The position numbers and the translations under genes were made by a program. Under the pieces are notes generated by a model. It did no database searches and had not been told where the DNA came from. It saw only the letters and a program-made list of their open reading frames with translations. A stretch of 64,000 nt of DNA from an uncultured Hyphomicrobiales bacterium (GTDB lineage: Bacteria; Bacteroidota; Ignavibacteria; Kapaibacteriales; UBA2268), in NCBI GenBank assembly GCA_964606895.1, contig CAZSHX010000008.1, forward strand, positions 17,816 to 81,815, read 5' to 3'. Numbering within the stretch: position 1 is the first letter of the stretch; each line of letters starts with the position of its first letter. Below, one piece after another: positions 7,458 to 56,870 of the stretch.

Positions 7458-8948
7458 GTGTTTAAAACAAACAATCCTGAAACCGTAGATTTGTTTTCTC
7501 AGGCTGATAGCCGAAAGGTTTCGGAAAAAAAGGATGCCGATAAGTTTTCTGATAGCGGAAATGCTGAGCTTCATTGGAATAAATGCCTTAATATCATAAA
7601 GGACAATGTTTCGACCCAAGTATTCAGAACTTGGTTCGAACCACTGAAAGCTATTTCAATCGAAGATTCGAAACTTTCCGTCAGAGTACCCAGCTACTTT
7701 TTCTGTGAATGGATTGAGGAGCATTTCGCACCTTTACTTCAGAAGACACTACAACAAGTGATTGGTGAGAATGCAAGACTGCAATATGATGTCGTTGTGG
7801 ACGACAACGGTGATTCGCTCGAAAAGAGGACAATCACTTTGCCGGGCTTTAAAAACGGAAGTCAGAAGAAACAAACGTCGTTGCCTTTTGCTCATAATCC
7901 TATTGCAGTTCAGGAGTTTCCATCTTTCCTGAATCCTCGCTATACTTTCGACGGCTTTATCCGCGGCGAGAGCAATCAGCTTGCAAGTTCAGCGGCTATG
8001 GCTGTCAGCCAGAATCCCGGAGGGACACGGTTTAATCCTCTTTTGTTTTATGGAGATACAGGAATCGGGAAAACCCATCTTGCTCAGGCAATCGGGAATT
8101 TTATCTGTCAGAAGAACAGAAAATCAAGAGTTCTCTACACAACAAGCGAGAGCTTTACAATGGAATTTGTTAACGCTATTCAGAACAATAAGACAAATGA
8201 ATTCATCAGCTTTTACAGAAGCATTGACGTTCTGATTGTTGATGATATTCAGTTTTTTGCAGGAAAAGAAAAAACACAGGATAATTTCTTTCATACTTTC
8301 AATGCACTTCATCAGGCAGGCAAACAAATTATTCTTACGAGCGATCGTCCGCCAAGAAGTCTTTCCGATGTTGACGACAGACTTATTTCCAGGTTCCAAT
8401 GGGGTTTGACTGTTGACATTCAGCGACCCGACCTTGAAATGAGAATGGCAATTCTTCAGAAGAAAAGTTTGGACGAAGGCTGGGAGCTTCCGATGGATAT
8501 CATCGAATTCATTGCAAAAAATGTTACCCATAGTGTTCGTCAGCTTGAAGGAATATTAATCAGTTTAACAGCAAAAGTTACTCTCGACAGACGAGAAATG
8601 AATCTTGAATTAGCCAAGGAAGTTGTTTTCGGCGTTGCTAATAACCAGCCGAAAATTCTGACAATAGATGATATCAAGGAAGCAGTTTCAGTTTATTACA
8701 ACATTCCGCTTACCGATATTGAATCCAAGAACAGAAAGCATGAGATAACACTTGCCAGACAAATGTGTATTTATATTGCCAAACAGCTGACTCAGCTCTC
8801 TCTGAAAAGTATAGGTTCAAATTTTGGCGGAAGAGACCACTCTACCGTTCTTCATTCGTGCCAGACTATTGAGAACTATCTTGTCACCGACCGTTCGGTT
8901 AAGCATGCTTACGAAGCTTTAATGAAGAAACTAAAAACGAATTCTTAG
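7458..8948 (+). CDS. dnaA: Chromosomal replication initiator DnaA (GTG start)
   Basis: Walker A is GDTGIGKTHL and Walker B is LIVDDIQF. The C-terminal DNA-binding helix region is RKHEITLARQMCIYIAKQLT...GGRDHSTVLHS. An AAGGAG-like SD (aaaggag) lies upstream of the GTG. Confidence 0.95.
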   Translation: MFKTNNPETVDLFSQADSRKVSEKKDADKFSDSGNAELHWNKCLNIIKDNVSTQVFRTWFEPLKAISIEDSKLSVRVPSYFFCEWIEEHFAPLLQKTLQQVIGENARLQYDVVVDDNGDSLEKRTITLPGFKNGSQKKQTSLPFAHNPIAVQEFPSFLNPRYTFDGFIRGESNQLASSAAMAVSQNPGGTRFNPLLFYGDTGIGKTHLAQAIGNFICQKNRKSRVLYTTSESFTMEFVNAIQNNKTNEFISFYRSIDVLIVDDIQFFAGKEKTQDNFFHTFNALHQAGKQIILTSDRPPRSLSDVDDRLISRFQWGLTVDIQRPDLEMRMAILQKKSLDEGWELPMDIIEFIAKNVTHSVRQLEGILISLTAKVTLDRREMNLELAKEVVFGVANNQPKILTIDDIKEAVSVYYNIPLTDIESKNRKHEITLARQMCIYIAKQLTQLSLKSIGSNFGGRDHSTVLHSCQTIENYLVTDRSVKHAYEALMKKLKTNS

Positions 8949-9156: not shown

Positions 9157-11343
9157 CTACTTAATTAGCATCATTTTCTTTACGTCAACAAAATTGTTGC
9201 AGGTGAGCGTGTAGAAATACACTCCCGATTCTAAACCCGAATGCTCGAATTTAATATTAAACTTTCCGGCTTTGTGCTCGGCGGTATTGACAAGCTCGGC
9301 TACCTGCTGACCTAATGAATTGTAAACGGCAATCCTTGCATAACCTGCCTCGCCGATAACATAAGAAATATCGGTTGTACTGCTGAATGGATTAGGTATG
9401 TTTTGAAATAAAGAGGTAAGTAAAGGTACAGAATTTGTGCTTACTCTTTTTTCGGATTCAGACTGCGAAGGATTAATCCTATTATTCGAATTCCAAACGC
9501 ATGAATCATGTGCACTGCATCCTCTTTGATATATATTATGGTCGTCACTGGCTGAAATTGGGGCATTATCGCATGTTATCTTAGCCGAAAAGTTCACCCC
9601 CCAATTTATTTTGGTAGTTGGTTTGATAATAATTTTGGTAGCTGAACGCAAATTAAGATTCAGAGGATATTGGGGAACGGTATAGGTGTTATTTCGTACG
9701 TCTATACTATCATCCTCAAATATAGATGCAAAAAAAGGCAGAATGTAATTATTGTGGCATCCACCGCCAATATACAAGTCGTCAATATTAAAGTATGTAA
9801 CGCAAAATTCATCTTGATTTGCAGGGTCGCATAAAGGTGTTATTGTCGTTATATCCAAGTCATGGTTTCTTCCATATATATAAACCGGAAAGCCTACACC
9901 ATCTACAGATAAATCCCCTGAAGTCCAATTCGGAGCGAGCCAATGATGCAATGAAGTTTCATCTGTCCCGCCTCCTACCCATGACTCGCTGAATTTACCA
10001 CCCCACTCGTATTCAACATTACACGGGCTATTTATGGAATGAGACCGATGCTGAGCAATTACTTTATGTTCTTCATTAAAATACGGAGAACCGGAAGAAC
10101 CGTCATCAAAATAATTAACTCCATTCTCTGCTGACATTTTCCAATAAACTTGCCCCAAGTCTGCATGCTCAGGGGCATAATCAGTATTTGCTTCATCATC
10201 GTCAAAAGAAATTTGCATACCTACAGCATTTTGCCCCGGGAAATGAAGGCATGTGACTTTAGGCTCAGGTTCATTTACGGGACTTGTATATGACCATCCA
10301 GCATAAAATACGTTGTCTGAAATAGTGAAGGAATTATTAAGTTCAATTAATGCAAAATCCGTATTAATAAATGCTGAACGAAAACTAGCACCATTAAATG
10401 TATGATAATTTGAAATAGAAGAAGAATGCGAGCATGTCTGGTTCATATAGCTAAAATAAAATATATAATTTTCAATTTCATTTTTCTCTGCCTGACTAAT
10501 TATAAAATCATCATTTAAATCAATTCCATGATAAGCGGTCAGAACTAAAGAACCAGATGTAACTGGACTACCAGAAGTATAATTTAGTAGAACACCCGAC
10601 CATAAAATTGTACTATACAATATTCGAACTGTAGCCCTTTTTTCCCTGCACCACTCTTCACCTTCGGTACAGTTAACATTCTTTGAACAATCTGTCCAGT
10701 TCAAAATATTATCAAATTCAGAATTTTTAAAAATTGGACTATTAATTACATCAAGGAAACCATGTACAATTTTGCTTATATTGAATCTTCCTTCCCCAAT
10801 TACGTTTTTCGGCTCAAAATATTCAAAAGTTACTTCATCACCTTGGATCAATTCGGTTGAAAACTTGTTATTAATAAAATTATTTTTTTCAGTATAAGCA
10901 CCTAGAACCACAGACCTGTCGGAATTATAAATAAACAATCTACTTCCTTGTGACAAATGAAAGTTTGTAAAAATAAAATTCAGCGAGTATGCTTTTTCGG
11001 ATTTAACCCTCAATCTCCAAAGAATTGAACCATCGGGTAAAGTATCAACTGTTCCAGAATTATTTATATTGATATTTACATTATATTCATAGCCAAAAAC
11101 AAGGATTCCTCTTTTTTTACTTTCGTCAGCGGATACTTTTTTAGTAGAGTCAATATTAAATTCTATCATCGTCATCAATTCCAATTTCTCATGGGGGGTG
11201 ATTCCCTTTAAAGAATCACTTAACATTTTTAGATTGGTAGCACTAACTTGACAAAATAAATTTAATGATGCAATTAAATTGCAAAATATTGCAATAAATA
11301 ATATTTTAATATATTTCATTTTTATTTCCTTTTTTATCTCCAA
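9157..11343 (-). CDS. Secreted chymotrypsin-fold (S1) serine endopeptidase with a T9SS C-terminal sorting domain (alternative start at 11319)
   Basis: The DDGSSGSPYF serine motif and LTAYHG histidine motif are typical of trypsin-like or lysyl/glutamyl endopeptidases. It has a signal peptide (KILFIAIFCNLIASLNLFCQ). The CTD is IPNPFSSTTDISY...GVYFYTLTCNNFVDVKKMMLIK. Confidence 0.65.
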   Translation of the reverse strand: MEIKKEIKMKYIKILFIAIFCNLIASLNLFCQVSATNLKMLSDSLKGITPHEKLELMTMIEFNIDSTKKVSADESKKRGILVFGYEYNVNININNSGTVDTLPDGSILWRLRVKSEKAYSLNFIFTNFHLSQGSRLFIYNSDRSVVLGAYTEKNNFINNKFSTELIQGDEVTFEYFEPKNVIGEGRFNISKIVHGFLDVINSPIFKNSEFDNILNWTDCSKNVNCTEGEEWCREKRATVRILYSTILWSGVLLNYTSGSPVTSGSLVLTAYHGIDLNDDFIISQAEKNEIENYIFYFSYMNQTCSHSSSISNYHTFNGASFRSAFINTDFALIELNNSFTISDNVFYAGWSYTSPVNEPEPKVTCLHFPGQNAVGMQISFDDDEANTDYAPEHADLGQVYWKMSAENGVNYFDDGSSGSPYFNEEHKVIAQHRSHSINSPCNVEYEWGGKFSESWVGGGTDETSLHHWLAPNWTSGDLSVDGVGFPVYIYGRNHDLDITTITPLCDPANQDEFCVTYFNIDDLYIGGGCHNNYILPFFASIFEDDSIDVRNNTYTVPQYPLNLNLRSATKIIIKPTTKINWGVNFSAKITCDNAPISASDDHNIYQRGCSAHDSCVWNSNNRINPSQSESEKRVSTNSVPLLTSLFQNIPNPFSSTTDISYVIGEAGYARIAVYNSLGQQVAELVNTAEHKAGKFNIKFEHSGLESGVYFYTLTCNNFVDVKKMMLIK

Positions 11344-11858
11344 ATAATAATAACCGATGTGTCAATTTGTACAGTATAATCGCTTTGAATTTTTGGAACT
11401 TTTAACCAATGCATATCTAACTGCCCAACAAATTCCGAAATGGTATCTTTAATAAAAGTACAGTCAATATGATATATAATTTTTTTTTGTTTGATATTCT
11501 TAAATAATGTTGCTTTAAATTTTGGATATTCAGCCCAAGAAGATGCATAAGTTTTTTTTCCAAGTAAAGTATATTTAGAAAAATCGATTTCAGGCAAAGA
11601 ATATGTATCACATTTTGACCAAGGAAATTTAAATTTAAGAATTTGAAAATATTCGTTATCATTGTTAATAATATAATTATTAGTGTCTAGTTTTAAAATC
11701 TCAATACAAAAGTAATCAAGAACAATTGAAGCAGTATCTATAATTATTTCTACGGAATCCTGAATTTTTGGGTTAATAATAGCTGTTGGCGTTTCTTCCC
11801 GGCATCCGGCAAAAAGCAGAATGAAAGAAAAGGCGAGAAAAGCAAATATAGTTTTCAT
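11334..11858 (-). CDS. Small lipoprotein of unknown function
   Basis: It has a lipobox signal (MKTIFAFLAFSFILLFAGC). Its end overlaps or abuts the downstream protease gene, suggesting co-transcription. Confidence 0.5.
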   Translation of the reverse strand: MKTIFAFLAFSFILLFAGCREETPTAIINPKIQDSVEIIIDTASIVLDYFCIEILKLDTNNYIINNDNEYFQILKFKFPWSKCDTYSLPEIDFSKYTLLGKKTYASSWAEYPKFKATLFKNIKQKKIIYHIDCTFIKDTISEFVGQLDMHWLKVPKIQSDYTVQIDTSVIIIWR

Positions 11859-11938: not shown

Positions 11939-13510
11939 TTATTGTTTTTTTGATTTTTTCAATTGCTTAATGCTGTTGTTCATCACCTCGACTTTTTCCT
12001 TTAAAGCCTTATTTTCTTTGTTCATATCAATCATATAAAGCGTTAGCTCTTCAATTTTCTGAAGCAGTTTTGCCTGCACTTCTGCAACATTAACACCTTT
12101 ATTTTTTACATCCAATTCAGAAGGAATCCCGGGAAGTGTGCCGTTTAGTTTGATAGATTTTTCGATTTCCTCGAGTGACGGCAGTTTGTAATCTTTCTTA
12201 AAAACAAAGTCCGCCCAACAGTCTGGTAATGCTACAATAAGTTCTGTGCAAATAATTGTTCCGTCAACTGATAATTTATATGTATTGAAATATTGAGAAC
12301 CGGACGGCACTTCATGAGTTCCAATTCTAACTTTGCCATTAACGGCAAGCATTTGTCCGGTTGGGTCAATTGCAGAAGGAACAGGGAAACCGATACCAAC
12401 GGTACCGTCAACATTTAGTTTGTAGCCCGGGTTTGTATATCCGATACCAACATTGCCATTTCGGGTTAAAGTCATGATGTTAATTAGATTTGTTTCAGTC
12501 CCTGAAAGAGCATATCCTGTTTGCCCGTCAGTGCCATAAAGACTTTTAAAAGTTAAAACCCCGGATGGTCCATTTGGAATATTGCTTTCTTCAATATACC
12601 ATGGATATGCATTAAACTGTCCTGTATTCAATAACATAAATTGATCAGCACCTTGGTAAAATCTTATCTGTGGAAAAGTGCCAAACTGCCCGGTTTTGCT
12701 AAAACTAATTTTTGGTGCAAAATTGTGGGGTTCAAGATTATGGTTCAAATTAATATCTAAGGTACCTATTATATATGATGCACCTCCCATGAAATCTAAA
12801 GCAGTTCCAATTCCGACTTGTCCTTGCTCGTTTATTGTCATTCTTTCGATATAGTTTGTTCTAAAATTCAGCGGTGCATTGACGTTAGTCCCGATGTAAT
12901 TGCTTGATGTAACATTTGAGTTTCCCCAAATAGTCCAGTAGCATAATTCAGGACACGGAGAGTTGTTTGGTAATGTGATTATTGTATTCTCTGCAATGGC
13001 ATTAGAAGCACAACGAGTGAAACAACCCGGACTGCTGGGACCTCCGCATTCCGGTAGCTGGGGTGGAATTAGAGGACTGGAGCTTATAACTCTAACAGCC
13101 GTCCCATTCATCTCTTTTAATAGTGAATATTCAGTCATACAACAGGGTCCGGGACACGGCTGTAAAGATTGAGTAGGTACATCCCAGTTCCAACATGAAG
13201 AATTTAAAAAATGAATTGTATATGGTATTAAGAATGGATTTGGGGTTTGAATATTGAAAATCTGAGACGAATAAAATAAAATCCGCTTGATGAATTCCTG
13301 AAACAAAGCATCAGCCGGTGCAAGGCATCCGGTACCATTAGTGGTAATACTGCTGATTCTCAGTTCCATTATATCCTGGCAGACCTTATATTCAACATTA
13401 ATCCAATATTGACAGCCTGCAAAATTATACTCAATAGGGTCGTTATAAGGGGTCCAGACTCCGGTGGAACAAATATCGCAAGTCGGGTCAACATAAGGTT
13501 GAGCTTTCAC
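11939..13510 (-). CDS. Tail-fibre-like surface protein body with a C-terminal coiled coil; currently out of frame with its own signal-peptide leader
   Basis: This long ORF begins at a GTG immediately after a G11 tract. The C-terminal segment is CWADFVFKKDYKLPSLEEIEKSIKLNGTLPGIPS...AKLLQKIEELTLYMIDMNKENKALKEKV. That segment is the pattern I associate with Bacteroidota tail-fibre-domain proteins. No signal peptide is present at the annotated start. Confidence 0.6.
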   Translation of the reverse strand: MKAQPYVDPTCDICSTGVWTPYNDPIEYNFAGCQYWINVEYKVCQDIMELRISSITTNGTGCLAPADALFQEFIKRILFYSSQIFNIQTPNPFLIPYTIHFLNSSCWNWDVPTQSLQPCPGPCCMTEYSLLKEMNGTAVRVISSSPLIPPQLPECGGPSSPGCFTRCASNAIAENTIITLPNNSPCPELCYWTIWGNSNVTSSNYIGTNVNAPLNFRTNYIERMTINEQGQVGIGTALDFMGGASYIIGTLDINLNHNLEPHNFAPKISFSKTGQFGTFPQIRFYQGADQFMLLNTGQFNAYPWYIEESNIPNGPSGVLTFKSLYGTDGQTGYALSGTETNLINIMTLTRNGNVGIGYTNPGYKLNVDGTVGIGFPVPSAIDPTGQMLAVNGKVRIGTHEVPSGSQYFNTYKLSVDGTIICTELIVALPDCWADFVFKKDYKLPSLEEIEKSIKLNGTLPGIPSELDVKNKGVNVAEVQAKLLQKIEELTLYMIDMNKENKALKEKVEVMNNSIKQLKKSKKQ

Positions 13511-13584
13511 CCCCCCCCCCGTGACAAAAATAACACAACGACAACGAAACAGAAAGCGACTGTTTTAAAGCACTGGTTCTTCAT
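13507..13584 (-). CDS. Leader ORF encoding a signal-peptide-like sequence (MKNQCFKTVAFCFVVVVLFLSRGGGG*) that stops right after the poly-G tract
   Basis: The ATG at 13584 is preceded by AGGAG (minus strand ...cgAGGAGattctATG). The hydrophobic core is typical of a secretion signal. A TGA at 13509-13507 is created by the current tract length. Confidence 0.5.
   Translation of the reverse strand: MKNQCFKTVAFCFVVVVLFLSRGGG
13510..13520 (-). repeat. Homopolymeric G11 tract (C11 on the + strand) at the junction of the leader ORF and the main ORF
   Basis: Counted directly: c at 13510 plus cccccccccc at 13511-13520. Confidence 0.95.
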
Positions 13585-13808
13585 AGAATCTCCTCGAATA
13601 TTTTAGAATTTATTTAATTACAAAAATTTTCTTTTTTCAGAGTCTATTGCCTAAATCTTGTTCCTTGCGATGAAATATTTTACCATAGTTTCGTTTTGTT
13701 CTTTTTCCGTTTGTAAAGTTACAAAGAAATAATAACATATCCTATATAAAATAATAATAATTTTTGGAAAATTGGAAAATATTTTTTTGTATTTTCTTAA
13801 CTAAAAAA

Positions 13809-13858
13809 AAAATGCCCTCTTGATTTGGTAATCCGACCAAAAAGCAAGAGGGCATTTT
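13809..13858. terminator. Rho-independent terminator for the 13871..14791 gene
   Basis: A perfect 14-bp stem pairs aaaatgccctcttg (13809-13822) with caagagggcatttt (13845-13858). On the minus strand it is followed by a T-run of about 10. Confidence 0.75.
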
Positions 13859-40469: not shown

Positions 40470-41021
40470 TTAGTTCAAAGTTTTTTCGCCGGCTTCCCAG
40501 TTGCAGGGAGTTAATTTACCTGACTGCAAAGCCTGAAGCACTCTTAGAACTTCTTTGGAATTTCTTCCGACTGCTTCGGGATGAATAACCGAATACTGAA
40601 GCACGCCGTTAGGGTCAATCAGATACAAACCACGCAAAGCATAGCCTGTTTCTTCTTTCAAAACTTCAAAACTGCGGGCAGTTTCGCGAGTGAAATCTGC
40701 AAGCATCGGGAAAGGTAGATTTTTAAGTCCGGGGAGCTGGCTTCTCCATGCAAGATGGGAAAAATGACTGTCCGTCGAACACGCAACTACTTCACAATTC
40801 AAAGCTTTAAAATGCTCGTAGTTTTTGCCGAATTCTTCGATTTCTGTCGGGCAGACAAAAGTGAAATCGAGTGGATAGAAAAACAAAACAACCCATTTTC
40901 CTTTGTAATCGTCCGATGAAATTGCTTTGAATGCGTTGTCGGGTCCAAGCAATTCAGCGTTGCCGCCGATAACTGCCGTACCTTTGAAAGCGGGAGCCTG
41001 ATGTCCTACTAATAATGCCAT
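40470..41021 (-). CDS. ahpC: Typical 2-Cys peroxiredoxin (AhpC/Prx1 type)
   Basis: The peroxidatic Cys motif is FTFVCPTEI and the resolving Cys is in LTPCNW. The ATG at 41021 is preceded by GGAGG with 5-nt spacing; the ORF-track start at 41033 is a TTG inside that SD region. Confidence 0.9.
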   Translation of the reverse strand: MALLVGHQAPAFKGTAVIGGNAELLGPDNAFKAISSDDYKGKWVVLFFYPLDFTFVCPTEIEEFGKNYEHFKALNCEVVACSTDSHFSHLAWRSQLPGLKNLPFPMLADFTRETARSFEVLKEETGYALRGLYLIDPNGVLQYSVIHPEAVGRNSKEVLRVLQALQSGKLTPCNWEAGEKTLN

Positions 41022-41194
41022 GAAAACCTCCAATAAAATATTTAAGAAAGACTAATTAAAATTTTCGTTTTGTGTAATTCTTTTAACGCATTAAGTTTTT
41101 TTTTAGTGTAAAATATAAAAAAAAAATTTGTTTTCGTATATTCGTAGTTCTTATAAAAAGCATTATTAATAATAAAAGAAATATTGGAACGGAA

Positions 41195-43513
41195 ATGAGT
41201 GAAAAGAATTTAGTTATTGTCGAATCACCGGCAAAAGCAAAGACTATAGAGAAATATCTTGGTAAGGACTTCAAAGTTACTTCGAGTATGGGACATGTGC
41301 GTGATTTGCCAAAAGACGATATGGCTATTGACGTGAACAAAGGCTTCAAACCAACTTATGAAATATCTGAGGACAAAAAAGAGTTCGTAAATAAATTAAG
41401 GAAAATGGCTAAGGATGCAGAAGTTATCTGGCTGGCGACTGACGCCGACCGTGAAGGAGAGGCAATTGCCTGGCATCTGCTCGAAGCTTTGAAACTTCAA
41501 ACTAAGGATACAAAAAGAATTGTTTTCCGTGAAATCACCAAAACAGCAATTCAAAAAGCTGTTCTTCATCCACGGGAAATAGACCTTGATTTGGTAAATG
41601 CCCAGCAGGCACGCCGAATTCTGGACAGGCTTGTCGGTTACGAACTTTCTCCCGTTCTTTGGAAAAAAATTAAAAAAGGTCTTTCTGCAGGCAGAGTTCA
41701 ATCGGTTGCAGTTCGTCTTGTGGTTGAACGGGAAAGAGAAATCGAACAGCATTCAACAAAGATTTCATATAAAGTTACTGCAAAATTCGATTTAGGAAAC
41801 GGCAAAACTCTTGATGCAGAACTTCAAAAAAATCTTGAAAAAGAAGAAGATGCAATGAAATTCCTTGAGAATTGCATTAACGCAGTTTTCTCATTGAAAA
41901 ATCTCGAGAAAAAACCTGTCAAGAAATCTCCTGCACCACCTTTTACAACTTCAACTCTTCAGCAGGAAGCAAACGCCAGACTTAGTTTTTCGGTGGCTCA
42001 AACCATGCTCGTTGCTCAAAAGCTTTATGAATCGGGTAAGATTTCCTACATGAGAACTGACTCTACGAACCTTTCTCAGGACGCAATCCAAAGTGCCTCG
42101 GAGGAAATAGTAAGGTCATTCGGAAGTGAATTCCTGAATGTCCGTCACTACGAAACAAAATCAGAAAATGCTCAGGAAGCTCACGAAGCAATCCGCCCCA
42201 CCGATTTTTCAGTCAGGGAAGTCCACGGGAATCTAAATGAAAAGAAACTATATGAATTAATCTGGAAAAGAGCAATTGCATCCCAAATGGCTGATGCCAA
42301 ACTCGAAAGAACAATTGCTACTATAGATATTTCCACCGTACCGCAAAATCTTACGGCAACAGGCGAAGTTGTGATTTTCGAAGGATACTTGAAGGTTTAT
42401 ATTGATTCTAAAAATGAAGACGATACCGAAGAGGAAAATTCGAAATTACTGCCGCCATTAACCATTGGGCAAATTCTGGATTTAAACGAAATGAAGGCAA
42501 CTCAGAAATTTTCCAATCCGCCGCCGCGTTACAGCGAAGCAAGTTTGGTTCGTAAACTTGAAGAATTGGGAATCGGCAGACCTTCCACTTATGCCCCGAC
42601 AATTTCGACTATTCAGAAAAGGGACTATGTGGTTAAAGAATCCCGCGAAGGCAGAATCAGAGCATTTGATGAATTTTTACTCAAAAATAATACTATCAAA
42701 AAGAATAAACTTGAGTCCAAAGTCGGTTCCGAGAAAAACAAACTTTATCCGACAAGTACAGCAATGCTTGTAAATGATTTTCTGGTTGAAAACTTCACTT
42801 CAGTTGTTGATTTTTCATTTACGGCAACCATCGAAAAAGAATTTGACGAAATAGCCGCAGGAAAACTTGAATGGCACAAAATGCTTGAAGAGTTTTATAC
42901 GGATTTTCACGCAAAAGTTGAAGAAACAAATTCAATAAAGAAAAAAACAACCGAAGGTACTCGCGAACTTGGGAATGACCCTGTTTCAGGAAAGAAAATA
43001 TTTGCTAAATTCGGAAAATTCGGACCTTACATTCAGCTTGGGGATAACGACCAGGAAGAAAAGCCGAAATATGCCAGCTTGAAAAAAAGCCAGCTGTTGG
43101 AGTCAATCACACTGAAAGATGCCCTTGAACTCTTCAAACTTCCACGCGAAGTAGGAACTTACGAAGGCAAGGAAATGGTTGTCGCAATCGGAAAATTCGG
43201 ACCTTTTGTCCGTCATGATTCAAAATTCTATTCACTTGCAAAAACTGACGACCCATATACAGTTGTTGCAGAAAGAGCAATTGAAATTATAGATTCGAAA
43301 CGCGTATCGGATACTCAGAAAGTAATCAAAGTATTTACCGAAAACCCTGAATTGAAAGTTTTAAAGGGAAGATTCGGTCCATATATCACTCTTGCAAAAG
43401 AGAACTATAAAATACCGAAGGGACTGAATCCCGAAACGATTACTTACGAGCAATGCCTTGAACTGACTTCCGTTCCGAAGGAAGCAAAACCAAAAGCAAG
43501 AAGAAGAAGCTAA
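41195..43513 (+). CDS. topA: DNA topoisomerase I
   Basis: The Toprim N-terminus is LVIVESPAKAKTIEKYLG and the active-site Tyr region is ISYMRTDST. Three C-terminal GKFGPY-type repeats are present (FGKFGPYIQL, IGKFGPFVRH, KGRFGPYITL) instead of Zn ribbons. Confidence 0.95.
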   Translation: MSEKNLVIVESPAKAKTIEKYLGKDFKVTSSMGHVRDLPKDDMAIDVNKGFKPTYEISEDKKEFVNKLRKMAKDAEVIWLATDADREGEAIAWHLLEALKLQTKDTKRIVFREITKTAIQKAVLHPREIDLDLVNAQQARRILDRLVGYELSPVLWKKIKKGLSAGRVQSVAVRLVVEREREIEQHSTKISYKVTAKFDLGNGKTLDAELQKNLEKEEDAMKFLENCINAVFSLKNLEKKPVKKSPAPPFTTSTLQQEANARLSFSVAQTMLVAQKLYESGKISYMRTDSTNLSQDAIQSASEEIVRSFGSEFLNVRHYETKSENAQEAHEAIRPTDFSVREVHGNLNEKKLYELIWKRAIASQMADAKLERTIATIDISTVPQNLTATGEVVIFEGYLKVYIDSKNEDDTEEENSKLLPPLTIGQILDLNEMKATQKFSNPPPRYSEASLVRKLEELGIGRPSTYAPTISTIQKRDYVVKESREGRIRAFDEFLLKNNTIKKNKLESKVGSEKNKLYPTSTAMLVNDFLVENFTSVVDFSFTATIEKEFDEIAAGKLEWHKMLEEFYTDFHAKVEETNSIKKKTTEGTRELGNDPVSGKKIFAKFGKFGPYIQLGDNDQEEKPKYASLKKSQLLESITLKDALELFKLPREVGTYEGKEMVVAIGKFGPFVRHDSKFYSLAKTDDPYTVVAERAIEIIDSKRVSDTQKVIKVFTENPELKVLKGRFGPYITLAKENYKIPKGLNPETITYEQCLELTSVPKEAKPKARRRS

Positions 43514-56245: not shown

Positions 56246-56870
56246 CCGTTGAAACGAAATAATCTAAATACTGATTCTCACCTGTTTTTAATCAATATCT
56301 TTCCTTCTCTAATTACATTTTATCACGCTTTAGAAGAGTATCGCTAACGGTTAATTATCAAATCACATTTCGAATATATTGATAGTACTCAAATTCACAA
56401 TTTTCAACAGCTTTACTGGAAACTCAGAAATATCATCATGACAAGACAAAACTTGTGTTCTTCAACTCAAAAAATCAATGGCACTTCAAAGCGGCATTCG
56501 TTTCTATTCTACACAAGGGTAGCCCTCTGTTCTATTAACTAACTAATTCAAAGGAATACGCCATAAGTTTCACTAAACGCTACCTGGAGCAAATACAGGA
56601 CGATGAGGCTGAACCTGAATACAACGACCTATTCGACTATGAGCAGATGCTCTACGAACAGGCAAAGCTACAACAATCAGACAATAACAACAGCACAAAA
56701 GAAAAAGGCTCTACCCTCAGCTAAACACTGGGGGGGAGCCTAACCCTATCAAGTTTTTAAAAAGTAGTGGGGGGGTACTTTCTTCCATTACGTGTATAGA
56801 TAATCAGCTTCTCTAAAATTTATATAAAAAATGAGATAGTCATTAGCCACTTACTTCAATTGTCAATTGG

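What the first reader, a model, noticed from the sequence alone, without database searches (positions are those of the whole stretch)
13507..13584. G11 tract separates a Shine-Dalgarno-led signal peptide from the body of a tail-fibre-like surface protein: phase-variation switch, pseudogene or homopolymer assembly error
On the minus strand an ATG at 13584, with AGGAG 7 nt upstream, opens MKNQCFKTVAFCFVVVVLFLSRGGGG and then hits TGA immediately after an 11-G run (13520-13510). The 523-aa main ORF starts in another frame at a GTG formed by the last G of the run. It lacks any signal peptide, although the protein is clearly extracytoplasmic in type. Adding one G (G12) or removing two (G9) fuses leader and body in frame: ...FLSRGGGGVKAQPYVDP.... 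Homopolymer tracts at this position are the classical slipped-strand ON/OFF switch for surface proteins. The same picture would arise from a sequencing indel.
Basis: seen in the sequence. Interest (0 to 1): 0.7.

Follow-up and report, generated by a model that had tools for sequence, protein, structure and literature searches.

The report
Poly-G on/off switch in fibre gene
A run of eleven G's sits inside the export signal of a tail-fibre-like secreted protein gene of an uncultured Kapabacteria-like bacterium and puts it out of frame; related genes carry similar G or C runs at the same place, so it is most likely a slipped-strand on/off switch, a well-known mechanism seen here in an unusual, free-living lineage.

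Summary
On the minus strand, GAGGAG and ATG (13584) open a 25-aa hydrophobic leader. It stops at a TGA directly after a G11 run (13520-13510). The 523-aa ORF starts in the -1 frame at a GTG made by the last G. G12 or G9 fuses the two into a 548/547-aa protein with a canonical signal peptide (…VKA|QPY…).

The run is not chance: it is the only G/C run longer than 7 in 64 kb.

It is also not peculiar to this assembly:
- A 99.94 % identical contig from another sample differs by one indel in 4.9 kb, and that indel is G10 for G11.
- Four other lineages of the same fibre family carry a G or C run in the leader (G11, G8, C8, C13). All are out of frame.
- Most other relatives have an intact signal peptide and no run.

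The segment just downstream of the run is as constrained as the rest of the domain.

Best reading: a slipped-strand contingency switch on a secreted trimeric fibre. The fibre stalk is homologous to Bdellovibrio MAT fibres.

No in-frame allele was seen and no reads were available. Assembly error in the exact length, decay, and recoding therefore remain possible.

It is a new member of a known kind, of moderate interest.

The parts
13590..13595 (-). Shine-Dalgarno-like GAGGAG, 5 nt before the leader ATG
   Evidence: Read directly from the sequence. Similar AAGGAGG and TAAGGAG motifs precede the leader ATG in L009 and L013.
13507..13584 (-). Leader ORF as it stands with G11: MKNQCFKTVAFCFVVVVLFLSRGGG plus TGA. 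It corresponds to the n-region, h-region and start of the c-region of a signal peptide.
   Evidence: The maximal 10-residue Kyte-Doolittle hydrophobicity is 3.53, well above the 2.0 cut-off used to call a hydrophobic N-terminus in the homologues.
13510..13520 (-). Homopolymer tract, G11 on the coding strand (C11 on +). It is the proposed slipped-strand switch. ON lengths are G12 or G9. G11 (here) and G10 (contig L002) are OFF.
13499..13510 (-). Codons GTG AAA GCT | CAA, giving V-K-A | Q. This is the predicted signal peptidase I site at the very start of the annotated 523-aa ORF.
   Evidence: Homologue leaders end in …AQ or …SQ. The cleavage itself is inferred; SignalP was not run.
11939..13510 (-). 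Body ORF (523 aa). It has a Cys-rich N-terminal domain (about residues 1-235, 14 Cys), a repeat stalk of the NGNVGIG type, and a conserved C-terminal helical/coiled-coil domain.
13803..13857 (-). Hairpin (aaatgccctcttg … caagagggcattt) followed by T10. It looks like an intrinsic terminator for the upstream 306-aa gene, so the fibre gene would have its own promoter between about 13800 and 13596.
   Evidence: Read from the sequence. The A10 run on the + strand appears. The terminator function is inferred.
11334..11858 (-). 174-aa lipoprotein gene (leader ends LFAGC) 80 nt downstream. It is a conserved partner of the fibre gene in L001 (three paralogues) and L013.
9157..11343 (-). T9SS cargo gene (Por_Secre_tail C-terminal domain). 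It overlaps the end of the lipoprotein gene, is probably in the same operon, and shows the same order in L013/L014.

Best explanation
The G run is a hypermutable homopolymer inside the signal-peptide coding region of a gene for a secreted, trimeric, tail-fibre-like protein. The host is an uncultured Kapabacteria-like member of the FCB group.

Proposed mechanism: slipped-strand mispairing during replication changes the run length by one or more G.
- At G12 or G9, the ATG at 13584 drives a 548/547-aa precursor. Its leader is cleaved after VKA, and the disulfide-rich fibre is exported.
- At G11 or G10, translation stops at or just after the run, and no exportable protein is made.

The assembled genome is in an OFF phase.

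Related fibre genes have kept or independently gained G or C runs at two different places in their leaders. This argues that selection acts on the switch itself and not on the encoded Gly or Pro residues.

Shown here: the anatomy, non-randomness, conservation in relatives, one length difference between near-identical strains, and constraint on the sequence just after the run.

Inferred: the switching rate, reversibility, the cleavage site, surface location, and the selective agent (phage, predator or attachment).
For: 1. Anatomy and the frame arithmetic hold.
2. The run is the only G/C run longer than 7 in 64 kb, where 0.0008 are expected. All its codons are rare ones (CGG 6.7 % of Arg, GGG 9.9 % of Gly).
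3. Contig L002, from another sample, is 99.94 % identical over 4.9 kb. Its single indel is G10 versus G11.
4. L001 encodes a homologue 40 % identical overall and 56 % in the N-domain. It has G11 at the same codon position (…LTRGGG*, and G12 would give …RGGGVIEAQYSSPSCDIC) although pS is 0.7-0.8.
5. Three more lineages have a run in the leader, each one step from an in-frame length:
   - L009: G8, in frame at G7 or G10.
   - L013/L014: C8, in frame at C9 or C6. These share the window's gene order.
   - L016: C13, in frame at C14 or C11.
6. In every one of these loci the leader run is the only G/C run of 7 or more.
7. Relatives without a run have ordinary signal peptides:
   - 96 of 120 have a hydrophobic N-terminus, and 86 of those have [AS]Q after it.
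   - All about 20 full-length N-domain relatives have one.
   - All 5 loci found in viral contigs have one.
8. The 46 codons between the run and the first internal Met have pN 0.34 and pS 0.67. The rest of the N-domain has pN 0.29 and pS 0.80. In L001 no start codon exists at the run, so this stretch is read only from the leader.
9. The N-domain has 14 Cys, all invariant between the window protein and L001. That fits an exported protein.
Against: - No in-frame allele was seen in any lineage. All six run lengths observed (G11, G10, G11, G8, C8, C13) are out of frame. The C8 gene is called from a start downstream of the run on all five contigs that carry it, and the run itself was read (C8) on two of them.
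- I found these cases by looking for relatives that lack a signal peptide, which biases the sample toward OFF alleles.
- The G10/G11 difference comes from assemblies at 4-6x coverage, where homopolymer length is error-prone.
- Assemblies visibly struggle at this locus. One contig is chimeric exactly at the run, and one assembly has a gap across it.
- L001 needs a second change (A4 to A5) to reach an ATG, and L016 has a second frameshift at a T4 run. Both are signs of decay or poor sequence.
- No read-level heterogeneity and no switching rate could be measured.
- SignalP was not available.
Confidence: 0.62

Rival explanations
1. Plain homopolymer length error. On this view the organism really has G12 (or G9) and an intact gene, and the frameshift exists only in the consensus sequence.
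For: - Long G/C runs are hard to call at low coverage, and the related contigs have 4-6x coverage.
- One contig is chimeric at the run, and one assembly has a gap across it.
- Four of the six observed lengths are exactly one base short of an in-frame length.
Against: - Out-of-frame lengths appear in five lineages from different projects and assemblers.
- Two of them (G10 in L002, G8 in L009) are one base longer than the nearest in-frame length. A uniform under-call of one base therefore does not explain them.
- The short C8 run was assembled identically in two samples, and four or more sources call that gene from a start downstream of the run.
- Even if the length here is wrong, the run would still be a conserved hypermutable tract.
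Confidence: 0.1
2. Pseudogene. On this view the gene was inactivated by a frameshift in a run and is decaying, with no reversible switching of any use to the cell.
For: - No in-frame allele was seen.
- L001 lacks an ATG in the leader frame.
- L016 has a second frameshift downstream.
- A related gene (L017-L019) is split by an in-frame TGA.
Against: - The 523-codon body is intact in an AT-rich genome. The bodies in L001, L009 and L013 are intact too.
- The leader keeps its SD, ATG and hydrophobic core.
- The run is kept across lineages whose synonymous sites are saturated, and the sequence after it is under purifying selection.
- A random inactivating frameshift would not recur in the same 25 codons in five lineages.
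Confidence: 0.12
3. Recoding. On this view the out-of-frame length is the normal genomic state, and a fraction of product is made in frame. The route would be RNA polymerase slippage on the G/C run, or ribosome slippage on GGG GGG next to the TGA.
For: - Every observed allele is out of frame, yet the bodies stay intact.
- In the window and in L001 the leader frame stops directly after the run (TGA and TAA), a context that would favour P-site slippage.
Against: - The shift needed differs between alleles. Four of the six lengths need one base added and two need one base removed. That does not fit one programmed ribosomal frameshift.
- From my own knowledge, documented bacterial transcriptional slippage uses A or T runs.
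- No stimulatory structure was looked for or seen.
Confidence: 0.1
4. The annotated GTG-start ORF is the real gene. It would make a leaderless cytoplasmic protein, possibly by re-initiation at the overlapping GTGA, and the upstream 25-aa ORF would be an unrelated uORF.
For: - The leader stop and the GTG overlap as GTGA.
- The G run could act as an SD-like element.
- Gene callers pick this start.
Against: - The ORF begins with VKAQ, which is the end of the family's signal peptide.
- The N-domain has 14 conserved Cys.
- Relatives are secreted proteins.
- L001 has GTA, not a start codon, at the same place.
Confidence: 0.03

Closest known systems
Neisseria pilC: poly-G run in the coding region gives ON/OFF phase variation (Jonsson et al. 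1991, as cited in PMC5953494, which lists pilC as G(9-20), genic)
   Same: - A mononucleotide G run of about 9-20 in the 5' coding region of a gene for a surface-associated protein.
- Frame-dependent ON/OFF.
- OFF alleles are common in sequenced genomes.
   Different: - The host here is an uncultured, apparently free-living Kapabacteria-like bacterium, not a host-restricted pathogen.
- The protein is unrelated.
- Switching has not been measured here.
- That the pilC run lies in the signal-peptide region is my recollection. I could not open the 1991 paper.
Neisseria opa genes: CTCTT/CTTCT pentamer repeats in the signal-peptide coding region (PMC5953494 table: Opa, CTTCT 7-21, genic)
   Same: - The repeat sits inside the leader-peptide coding sequence, so the mature protein is unchanged whatever in-frame length is used.
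- It is a translational ON/OFF switch on an adhesin-type protein.
   Different: - A pentanucleotide repeat there, a mononucleotide run here.
- A multigene family within one genome there. Here there is one copy in the 64-kb window.
- That the opa repeat lies in the leader is from my own knowledge.
5' homopolymeric tracts as general reversible inactivation devices, for example poly(A) in Listeria inlA (PMC2831843)
   Same: - A homopolymer near the 5' end of a surface-protein gene.
- The frameshift yields a very short peptide.
- Reversion restores the frame.
   Different: That study found enrichment for poly(A)/poly(T) of up to 7 bases. Here the runs are G or C of 8-13 in genomes of 32-38 % GC, which is much less expected.
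Bdellovibrio bacteriovorus MAT (mosaic adhesive trimer) fibres Bd2133, Bd3182, Bd1334 and Bd2439 (PMC10769870; PDB 8OND, 8ONC, 8OML, 8OL4)
   Same: - The stalk region is homologous: the family profile scores E = 1.9e-25 against Bd2133, and Foldseek gives 8e-5 to 1e-3.
- Both have an N-terminal signal peptide.
- Both resemble phage tail fibres.
   Different: - MAT fibres have a conserved N-terminal domain of about 130 aa and a variable C-terminal tip or an S74 domain.
- The protein here has a rare Cys-rich N-terminal domain and a conserved helical C-terminal domain.
- The paper passages I read do not mention phase variation for MAT fibres.

Membership tests
Simple-sequence-repeat contingency (phase-variable) locus | Mononucleotide run long enough to be unstable (about 8 or more G/C), located in the 5' coding region or promoter | tested here: met
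   G11 at 13510-13520, 64 nt after the ATG.
Simple-sequence-repeat contingency (phase-variable) locus | A change of repeat number switches the reading frame between a full-length product and a truncated product | tested here: met
   In silico, G9 and G12 give 547 and 548 aa. G8, G10, G11, G13 and G14 give 24-32 aa.
Simple-sequence-repeat contingency (phase-variable) locus | Run length differs among otherwise near-identical strains or within a population | tested here: inconclusive
   G10 in L002 versus G11 in the window and in L006, at 99.9 % identity. This is the only indel in 4.9 kb. Coverage is 4-6x and no reads were seen.
Simple-sequence-repeat contingency (phase-variable) locus | Both ON and OFF alleles occur | tested here: not met
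   Only out-of-frame lengths were found in five lineages, and no protein with a Gly- or Pro-run leader was found in the hit lists. Sampling was small and biased toward OFF alleles.
Simple-sequence-repeat contingency (phase-variable) locus | The repeat is maintained in homologues beyond neutral expectation | tested here: met
   G11 at the same codon in L001 despite pS 0.7-0.8. G8, C8 and C13 in the leaders of L009, L013/L014 and L016.
Simple-sequence-repeat contingency (phase-variable) locus | High-frequency, reversible switching measured experimentally | not testable with these tools
   This needs reads, amplicons or a reporter assay.
Sec/SPase I secreted protein (for the in-frame product) | Positive n-region, hydrophobic h-region, small residues at -3 and -1 before the cleavage site | tested here: met
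   K2 and K7; h-region TVAFCFVVVVLFL; V-K-A|Q. This is a rule-based check plus comparison with 86 homologue leaders ending in [AS]Q. SignalP was not run.
Bdellovibrio MAT fibre superfamily | Trimeric beta-prism/beta-helix stalk homologous to Bd2133 and Bd3182 | tested here: met
   Family profile versus PDB: 8OND E = 1.9e-25, 8OJN 2e-14, 8OML 3e-14. Foldseek agrees. Trimer formation itself was not tested.
Bdellovibrio MAT fibre superfamily | Conserved beta-rich N-terminal domain of about 130 aa right after the signal peptide, with a variable C-terminal tip or S74 domain (PMC10769870) | tested here: not met
   Both the profile match and the fold match cover only the stalk. The N-terminal domain is a Cys-rich domain with its own small family. 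The C-terminus is the conserved part.
Peptidase S74 intramolecular chaperone domain | Match to Pfam Peptidase_S74 | tested here: not met
   No Pfam family matches even at E <= 10. Only fold-level resemblance to viral proteins that carry such domains was found.
T9SS cargo | C-terminal Por_Secre_tail / CHU_C sorting domain | tested here: not met
   No hit in the fibre protein. The gene two positions downstream (9157-11343) does have the domain.

The most novel reading that the evidence does not exclude
The out-of-frame run length is the normal, stable genomic state in these lineages. The fibre would then be made only from the minority of transcripts, or translation events, in which RNA polymerase or the ribosome slips on the G/C run. 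That would be programmed recoding on a G/C homopolymer setting a low, constant level of an exported fibre, and not a DNA-level switch.
Probability: 0.1. Interest if true: 0.7.

Novelty: new member of a known kind. Interest (0 to 1): 0.5.

Why it matters
Repeat-driven phase variation is documented almost entirely in host-adapted pathogens and commensals. Here the same device appears on a secreted fibre gene in uncultured Kapabacteria-like bacteria. It recurs in at least five lineages, as G or C runs at two positions in the leader. One of those lineages comes from a 65 °C hot spring.

If read data confirm it, stochastic on/off control of surface fibres would also be used by free-living environmental bacteria. 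Plausible drivers are phage or predator pressure, or control of attachment.

There is also a practical point for annotation. Gene callers start these genes after the run. The protein then looks as if it has no signal peptide, or is truncated, as with P0001, P0002, P0004, P0009 and P0207.

Tried and rejected
- **Genome collection scans.** I scanned genome contigs twice, with the N-domain alignment A1 and the lipoprotein alignment A2. Both found nothing. The second used only a signal-peptide pattern, so it was uninformative.
- **Metagenome scan.** The metagenome-contig scan with A1 returned only the L001 contig again.
- **Neighbour-gene look-ups.** Exact-match look-ups of neighbouring genes, meant to collect more assemblies across the run, gave one usable contig (L002), one chimeric contig (L006) and contigs that stop short (L004, L005, L007, L015).
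- **Candidates that turned out ordinary.**
  - P0112 has an intact leader, and the gene caller merely chose a late start.
  - P0077 has a scaffold gap upstream.
  - P0183 is cut by the contig end.
  - P0187 has an in-frame TGA and no run.
- **Sigma-54 promoter.** I looked for one because a sigma-54 two-component pair lies upstream. There is no match between 13585 and 13870, and hits across the window are at chance level.
- **Paralogues.** There is no second copy of the fibre gene in the window.
- **RNA families.** There is no Rfam family near the locus.
- **Cluster look-up for ON alleles.** It found only a second OFF-type call, P0390.
- **Literature.** The pilC 1991 paper could not be opened. 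No held paper combines Kapabacteria with phase variation.
Full report
**1. The observation**

Read on the minus strand, the region is GAGGAG (13595-13590), 5 nt, then ATG (13584). The ATG opens MKNQCFKTVAFCFVVVVLFLSRGGG. A TGA (13509-13507) follows directly after a run of eleven G (13520-13510).

The last G of the run plus TG forms the GTG that opens the 523-aa ORF 11939-13510, in the -1 frame relative to the leader. Rebuilding the sequence with other run lengths shows that G9 and G12 give one ORF of 547 and 548 aa from the ATG. G8, G10, G11, G13 and G14 give 24-32 aa.

The leader has three Gly, not four. The G12 junction therefore reads …SRGGGVKAQ…. The spacer between AGGAG and ATG is 5 nt, not 7.

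The run is the only G or C run longer than 7 in the window, where about 0.0008 runs of 11 or more are expected. In this 37 % GC sequence, GGG is 9.9 % of Gly codons and CGG is 6.7 % of Arg codons. The codon string CGG GGG GGG GGG therefore has a probability of about 6e-5 given the peptide RGGG.

**2. What the gene is**

The window is bacterial chromosome. It carries DnaA at 7458-8948, T9SS cargo proteins and a sigma-54 two-component pair. The named relatives of its DnaA, at 65-69 % identity, are Candidatus Kapabacteria, Kapaibacterium and Ignavibacteria MAGs.

The 523-aa protein has no Pfam or NCBIfam family and a weak PHROG tail-fibre hit.
- A profile of the family matches the solved stalks of Bdellovibrio MAT fibres: 8OND at E = 1.9e-25, with 8OJN and 8OML near 1e-14.
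- An AlphaFold model (pLDDT 79.9) finds the same fibres in the PDB.
- The model also finds phage tail fibres and proteins with intramolecular chaperone domains in BFVD.

The architecture differs from MAT fibres as described in PMC10769870. Here the N-terminal 235 residues form a rare Cys-rich domain with 14 Cys. The conserved part is the C-terminal helical domain.

The annotated ORF starts VKAQPYV. Among the best 120 homologues, 96 have a hydrophobic N-terminus, and 86 of those have [AS]Q after it. Full-length relatives of the N-domain likewise begin with a signal peptide followed by the C-x2-C motif. The GTG ORF therefore starts at the last three residues of a signal peptide, whose n- and h-regions are encoded upstream of the run. 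The in-frame product has K2, K7, a 13-residue hydrophobic core and V-K-A|Q.

**3. Is the run specific to this assembly?**

It is not. Exact-match look-ups of the protein and its neighbours gave contigs from other samples.
- L002 (ERZ4201038) is 99.94 % identical over 4,907 aligned positions. It has two substitutions and one indel, and that indel is G10 instead of G11. G10 is also out of frame.
- L006 (ERZ4224321) has G11, but its first 137 bases are foreign GC-rich DNA joined exactly at the run. This is a chimeric contig end.
- In ERZ4223250 the assembly leaves a gap between window positions 13652 and 12933, which contains the run.

The run length therefore differs between near-identical strains. 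All of these assemblies have 4-6x coverage and clearly struggle at this site.

**4. Relatives**

| Locus | Source | Run in leader | In-frame lengths | Other points |
|---|---|---|---|---|
| L001 | JGI 3300013125; closest homologue P0002, 40 % identity overall, 56 % in the N-domain | G11, same codon position | G12 or G9 | Reads …LLFLTRGGG + TAA; G12 would give …RGGGVIEAQYSSPSCDIC |
| L009 | NCBI MAG GCA_964645005.1 | G8, between the hydrophobic core and …LKAQ | G7 or G10 | AAGGAGG before the ATG |
| L013/L014 | Two JGI samples, one being the Dewar Creek DC9 hot spring at 64.7 °C (PMC8098120) | C8, right after codon 7 | C9 or C6 | Same gene order as the window: fibre, about 170-aa lipoprotein, T9SS cargo |
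| L016 | ENA ERZ19048913 | C13, after codon 5 | C14 or C11 | Second frameshift further down |

For L001, synonymous differences between it and the window are saturated (pS 0.67-0.81), yet the eleven G are kept.

In each locus the leader run is the only G/C run of 7 or more.

Other family members whose DNA I read have intact leaders and no run: L010 and five loci from an unbiased scan of viral contigs. L011 has a scaffold gap upstream of the part of its leader that can be read. In L017-L019 the gene is split by an in-frame TGA, with no run.

Chance would give about 3e-4 such runs per 120-nt leader. This is my own estimate, from the roughly 18 % G and 18 % C base frequencies. Five lineages with a run among roughly 270 family proteins is therefore far above expectation.

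The runs occur at two different leader positions and as either G or C. This points to selection for a homopolymer as such, not for Gly or Pro residues.

**5. Is the frame through the run used?**

In L001 the codon at the end of the run is GTA, which is not a start codon. The first possible internal start is 47 codons further on. The intervening 46 aligned codons are 48 % identical to the window protein, with pN 0.34 against pS 0.67. The rest of the N-domain has pN 0.29 and pS 0.80. All four Cys in this stretch are conserved. That stretch can only be translated from the leader, so the in-frame state has been under selection.

**6. Weighing the explanations**

The data fit a slipped-strand contingency switch best, and I put it at about 0.62.
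- Against a plain length error: out-of-frame lengths occur in five lineages from different projects. Two of them are one base longer, not shorter, than the nearest in-frame length. The short C8 run was assembled identically in two samples, and further contigs from other sources call that gene from a start downstream of the run.
- Against a simple pseudogene: the bodies are intact, the leaders are preserved, and the lesion recurs in the same 25 codons.
- In favour of some decay: L001 needs A4 to A5 to reach an ATG, and L016 has a second frameshift at a T4 run.
- The main weakness is that no in-frame allele was found anywhere. My sample was biased, because I searched among relatives lacking a signal peptide. 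Six out-of-frame observations out of six is not significant: (2/3)^6 is about 0.09, by my own calculation.
- That weakness keeps recoding alive as a minor rival, meaning transcriptional or ribosomal slippage on the run. The direction of the shift needed is not uniform, with four lengths needing +1 and two needing -1, which argues against one programmed ribosomal frameshift.

**7. Comparison with known systems, and novelty**

The mechanism is the classical one known from Neisseria pilC and opa and from many Campylobacter, Helicobacter and Haemophilus genes (PMC5953494, PMC6321876). It also matches the general 5' homopolymer inactivation described in PMC2831843.

New here are the host, the protein and the recurrence across lineages. 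The host is an uncultured, apparently free-living Kapabacteria-like lineage, and one related lineage comes from a hot spring. The protein is a MAT-like fibre with a novel Cys-rich head. No held paper links Kapabacteria with phase variation.

I rate it a new member of a known kind, with interest 0.5.

**8. Context**

A hairpin followed by T10 (13857-13803) ends the upstream 306-aa gene, so the fibre gene should have its own promoter. No sigma-54 promoter was found there. An 80-nt gap separates the fibre gene from a 174-aa lipoprotein gene, which in turn overlaps a T9SS cargo gene. If these form one operon, premature termination in the OFF phase could also lower expression of the downstream genes. 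That is inference only.

Noticed in passing
L006:1-149 (ENA ERZ4224321 NODE_16622), corresponding to window 13510-13521: The contig's first 137 bases are foreign DNA of about 65 % GC, joined exactly at the 5' edge of the G11 run. The gene caller then produced a spurious 572-aa ORF. This is probably an assembly chimera at the homopolymer.
   Followed up: partly
L017:1270-2895, and likewise L018 and L019: A homologous fibre gene is split by an in-frame TGA (…CCTGSV*EYMVDIES…). The two parts are a 74-aa piece carrying the signal peptide and a 464-aa body. The protein is carried by five contigs, and the three read all show the split. The gene lies next to an SpvB/TcdB-like toxin gene and a group II intron reverse transcriptase. 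It could be a nonsense mutation, read-through or a recoded stop; this is undetermined.
   Followed up: no
window 56730-56736 and 56769-56775: Two G7 runs lie 39 nt apart in a stretch of about 600 nt without long ORFs, between convergent genes. They are the only other G runs of 7 or more in the window. There is no Rfam match.
   Followed up: partly
L001:57-133 and L016:540-560: Second lesions occur in two run-bearing relatives. L001 needs A4 to A5 to bring an ATG into the leader frame. L016 has another frameshift at a T4 run within the N-domain. These could reflect decay during long OFF periods or sequence errors.
   Followed up: partly
window 13590-13595; L009 about 1446-1452; L013 about 1422-1428: Strong Shine-Dalgarno motifs (GAGGAG, AAGGAGG, TAAGGAG) precede the leader ATGs. 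From my own knowledge, this is unlike classical Bacteroidia, which mostly lack SD sequences. It fits the Kapabacteria/Ignavibacteria placement.
   Followed up: no
L001:1876-5085: Downstream of the L001 fibre gene, three paralogues of the 174-aa lipoprotein (174, 187 and 174 aa) alternate with three related small secreted proteins (123, 128 and 274 aa). This looks like a tandemly expanded cassette of unknown function.
   Followed up: partly
window 41096-41126: A T9 run (41096-41104) and an A10 run (41117-41126) lie close together in the intergenic region between the divergent ORFs 40470-41033 (-) and 41195-43513 (+). I did not examine them.
   Followed up: no
window 11334-11858 and 9157-11343: The lipoprotein gene and the T9SS cargo gene overlap by 10 nt with the TTG start listed here. 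Other assemblies call the cargo gene as 720 aa, against 728 aa from the TTG. The fibre, lipoprotein and T9SS cargo order is conserved in the hot-spring lineage (L013/L014).
   Followed up: partly
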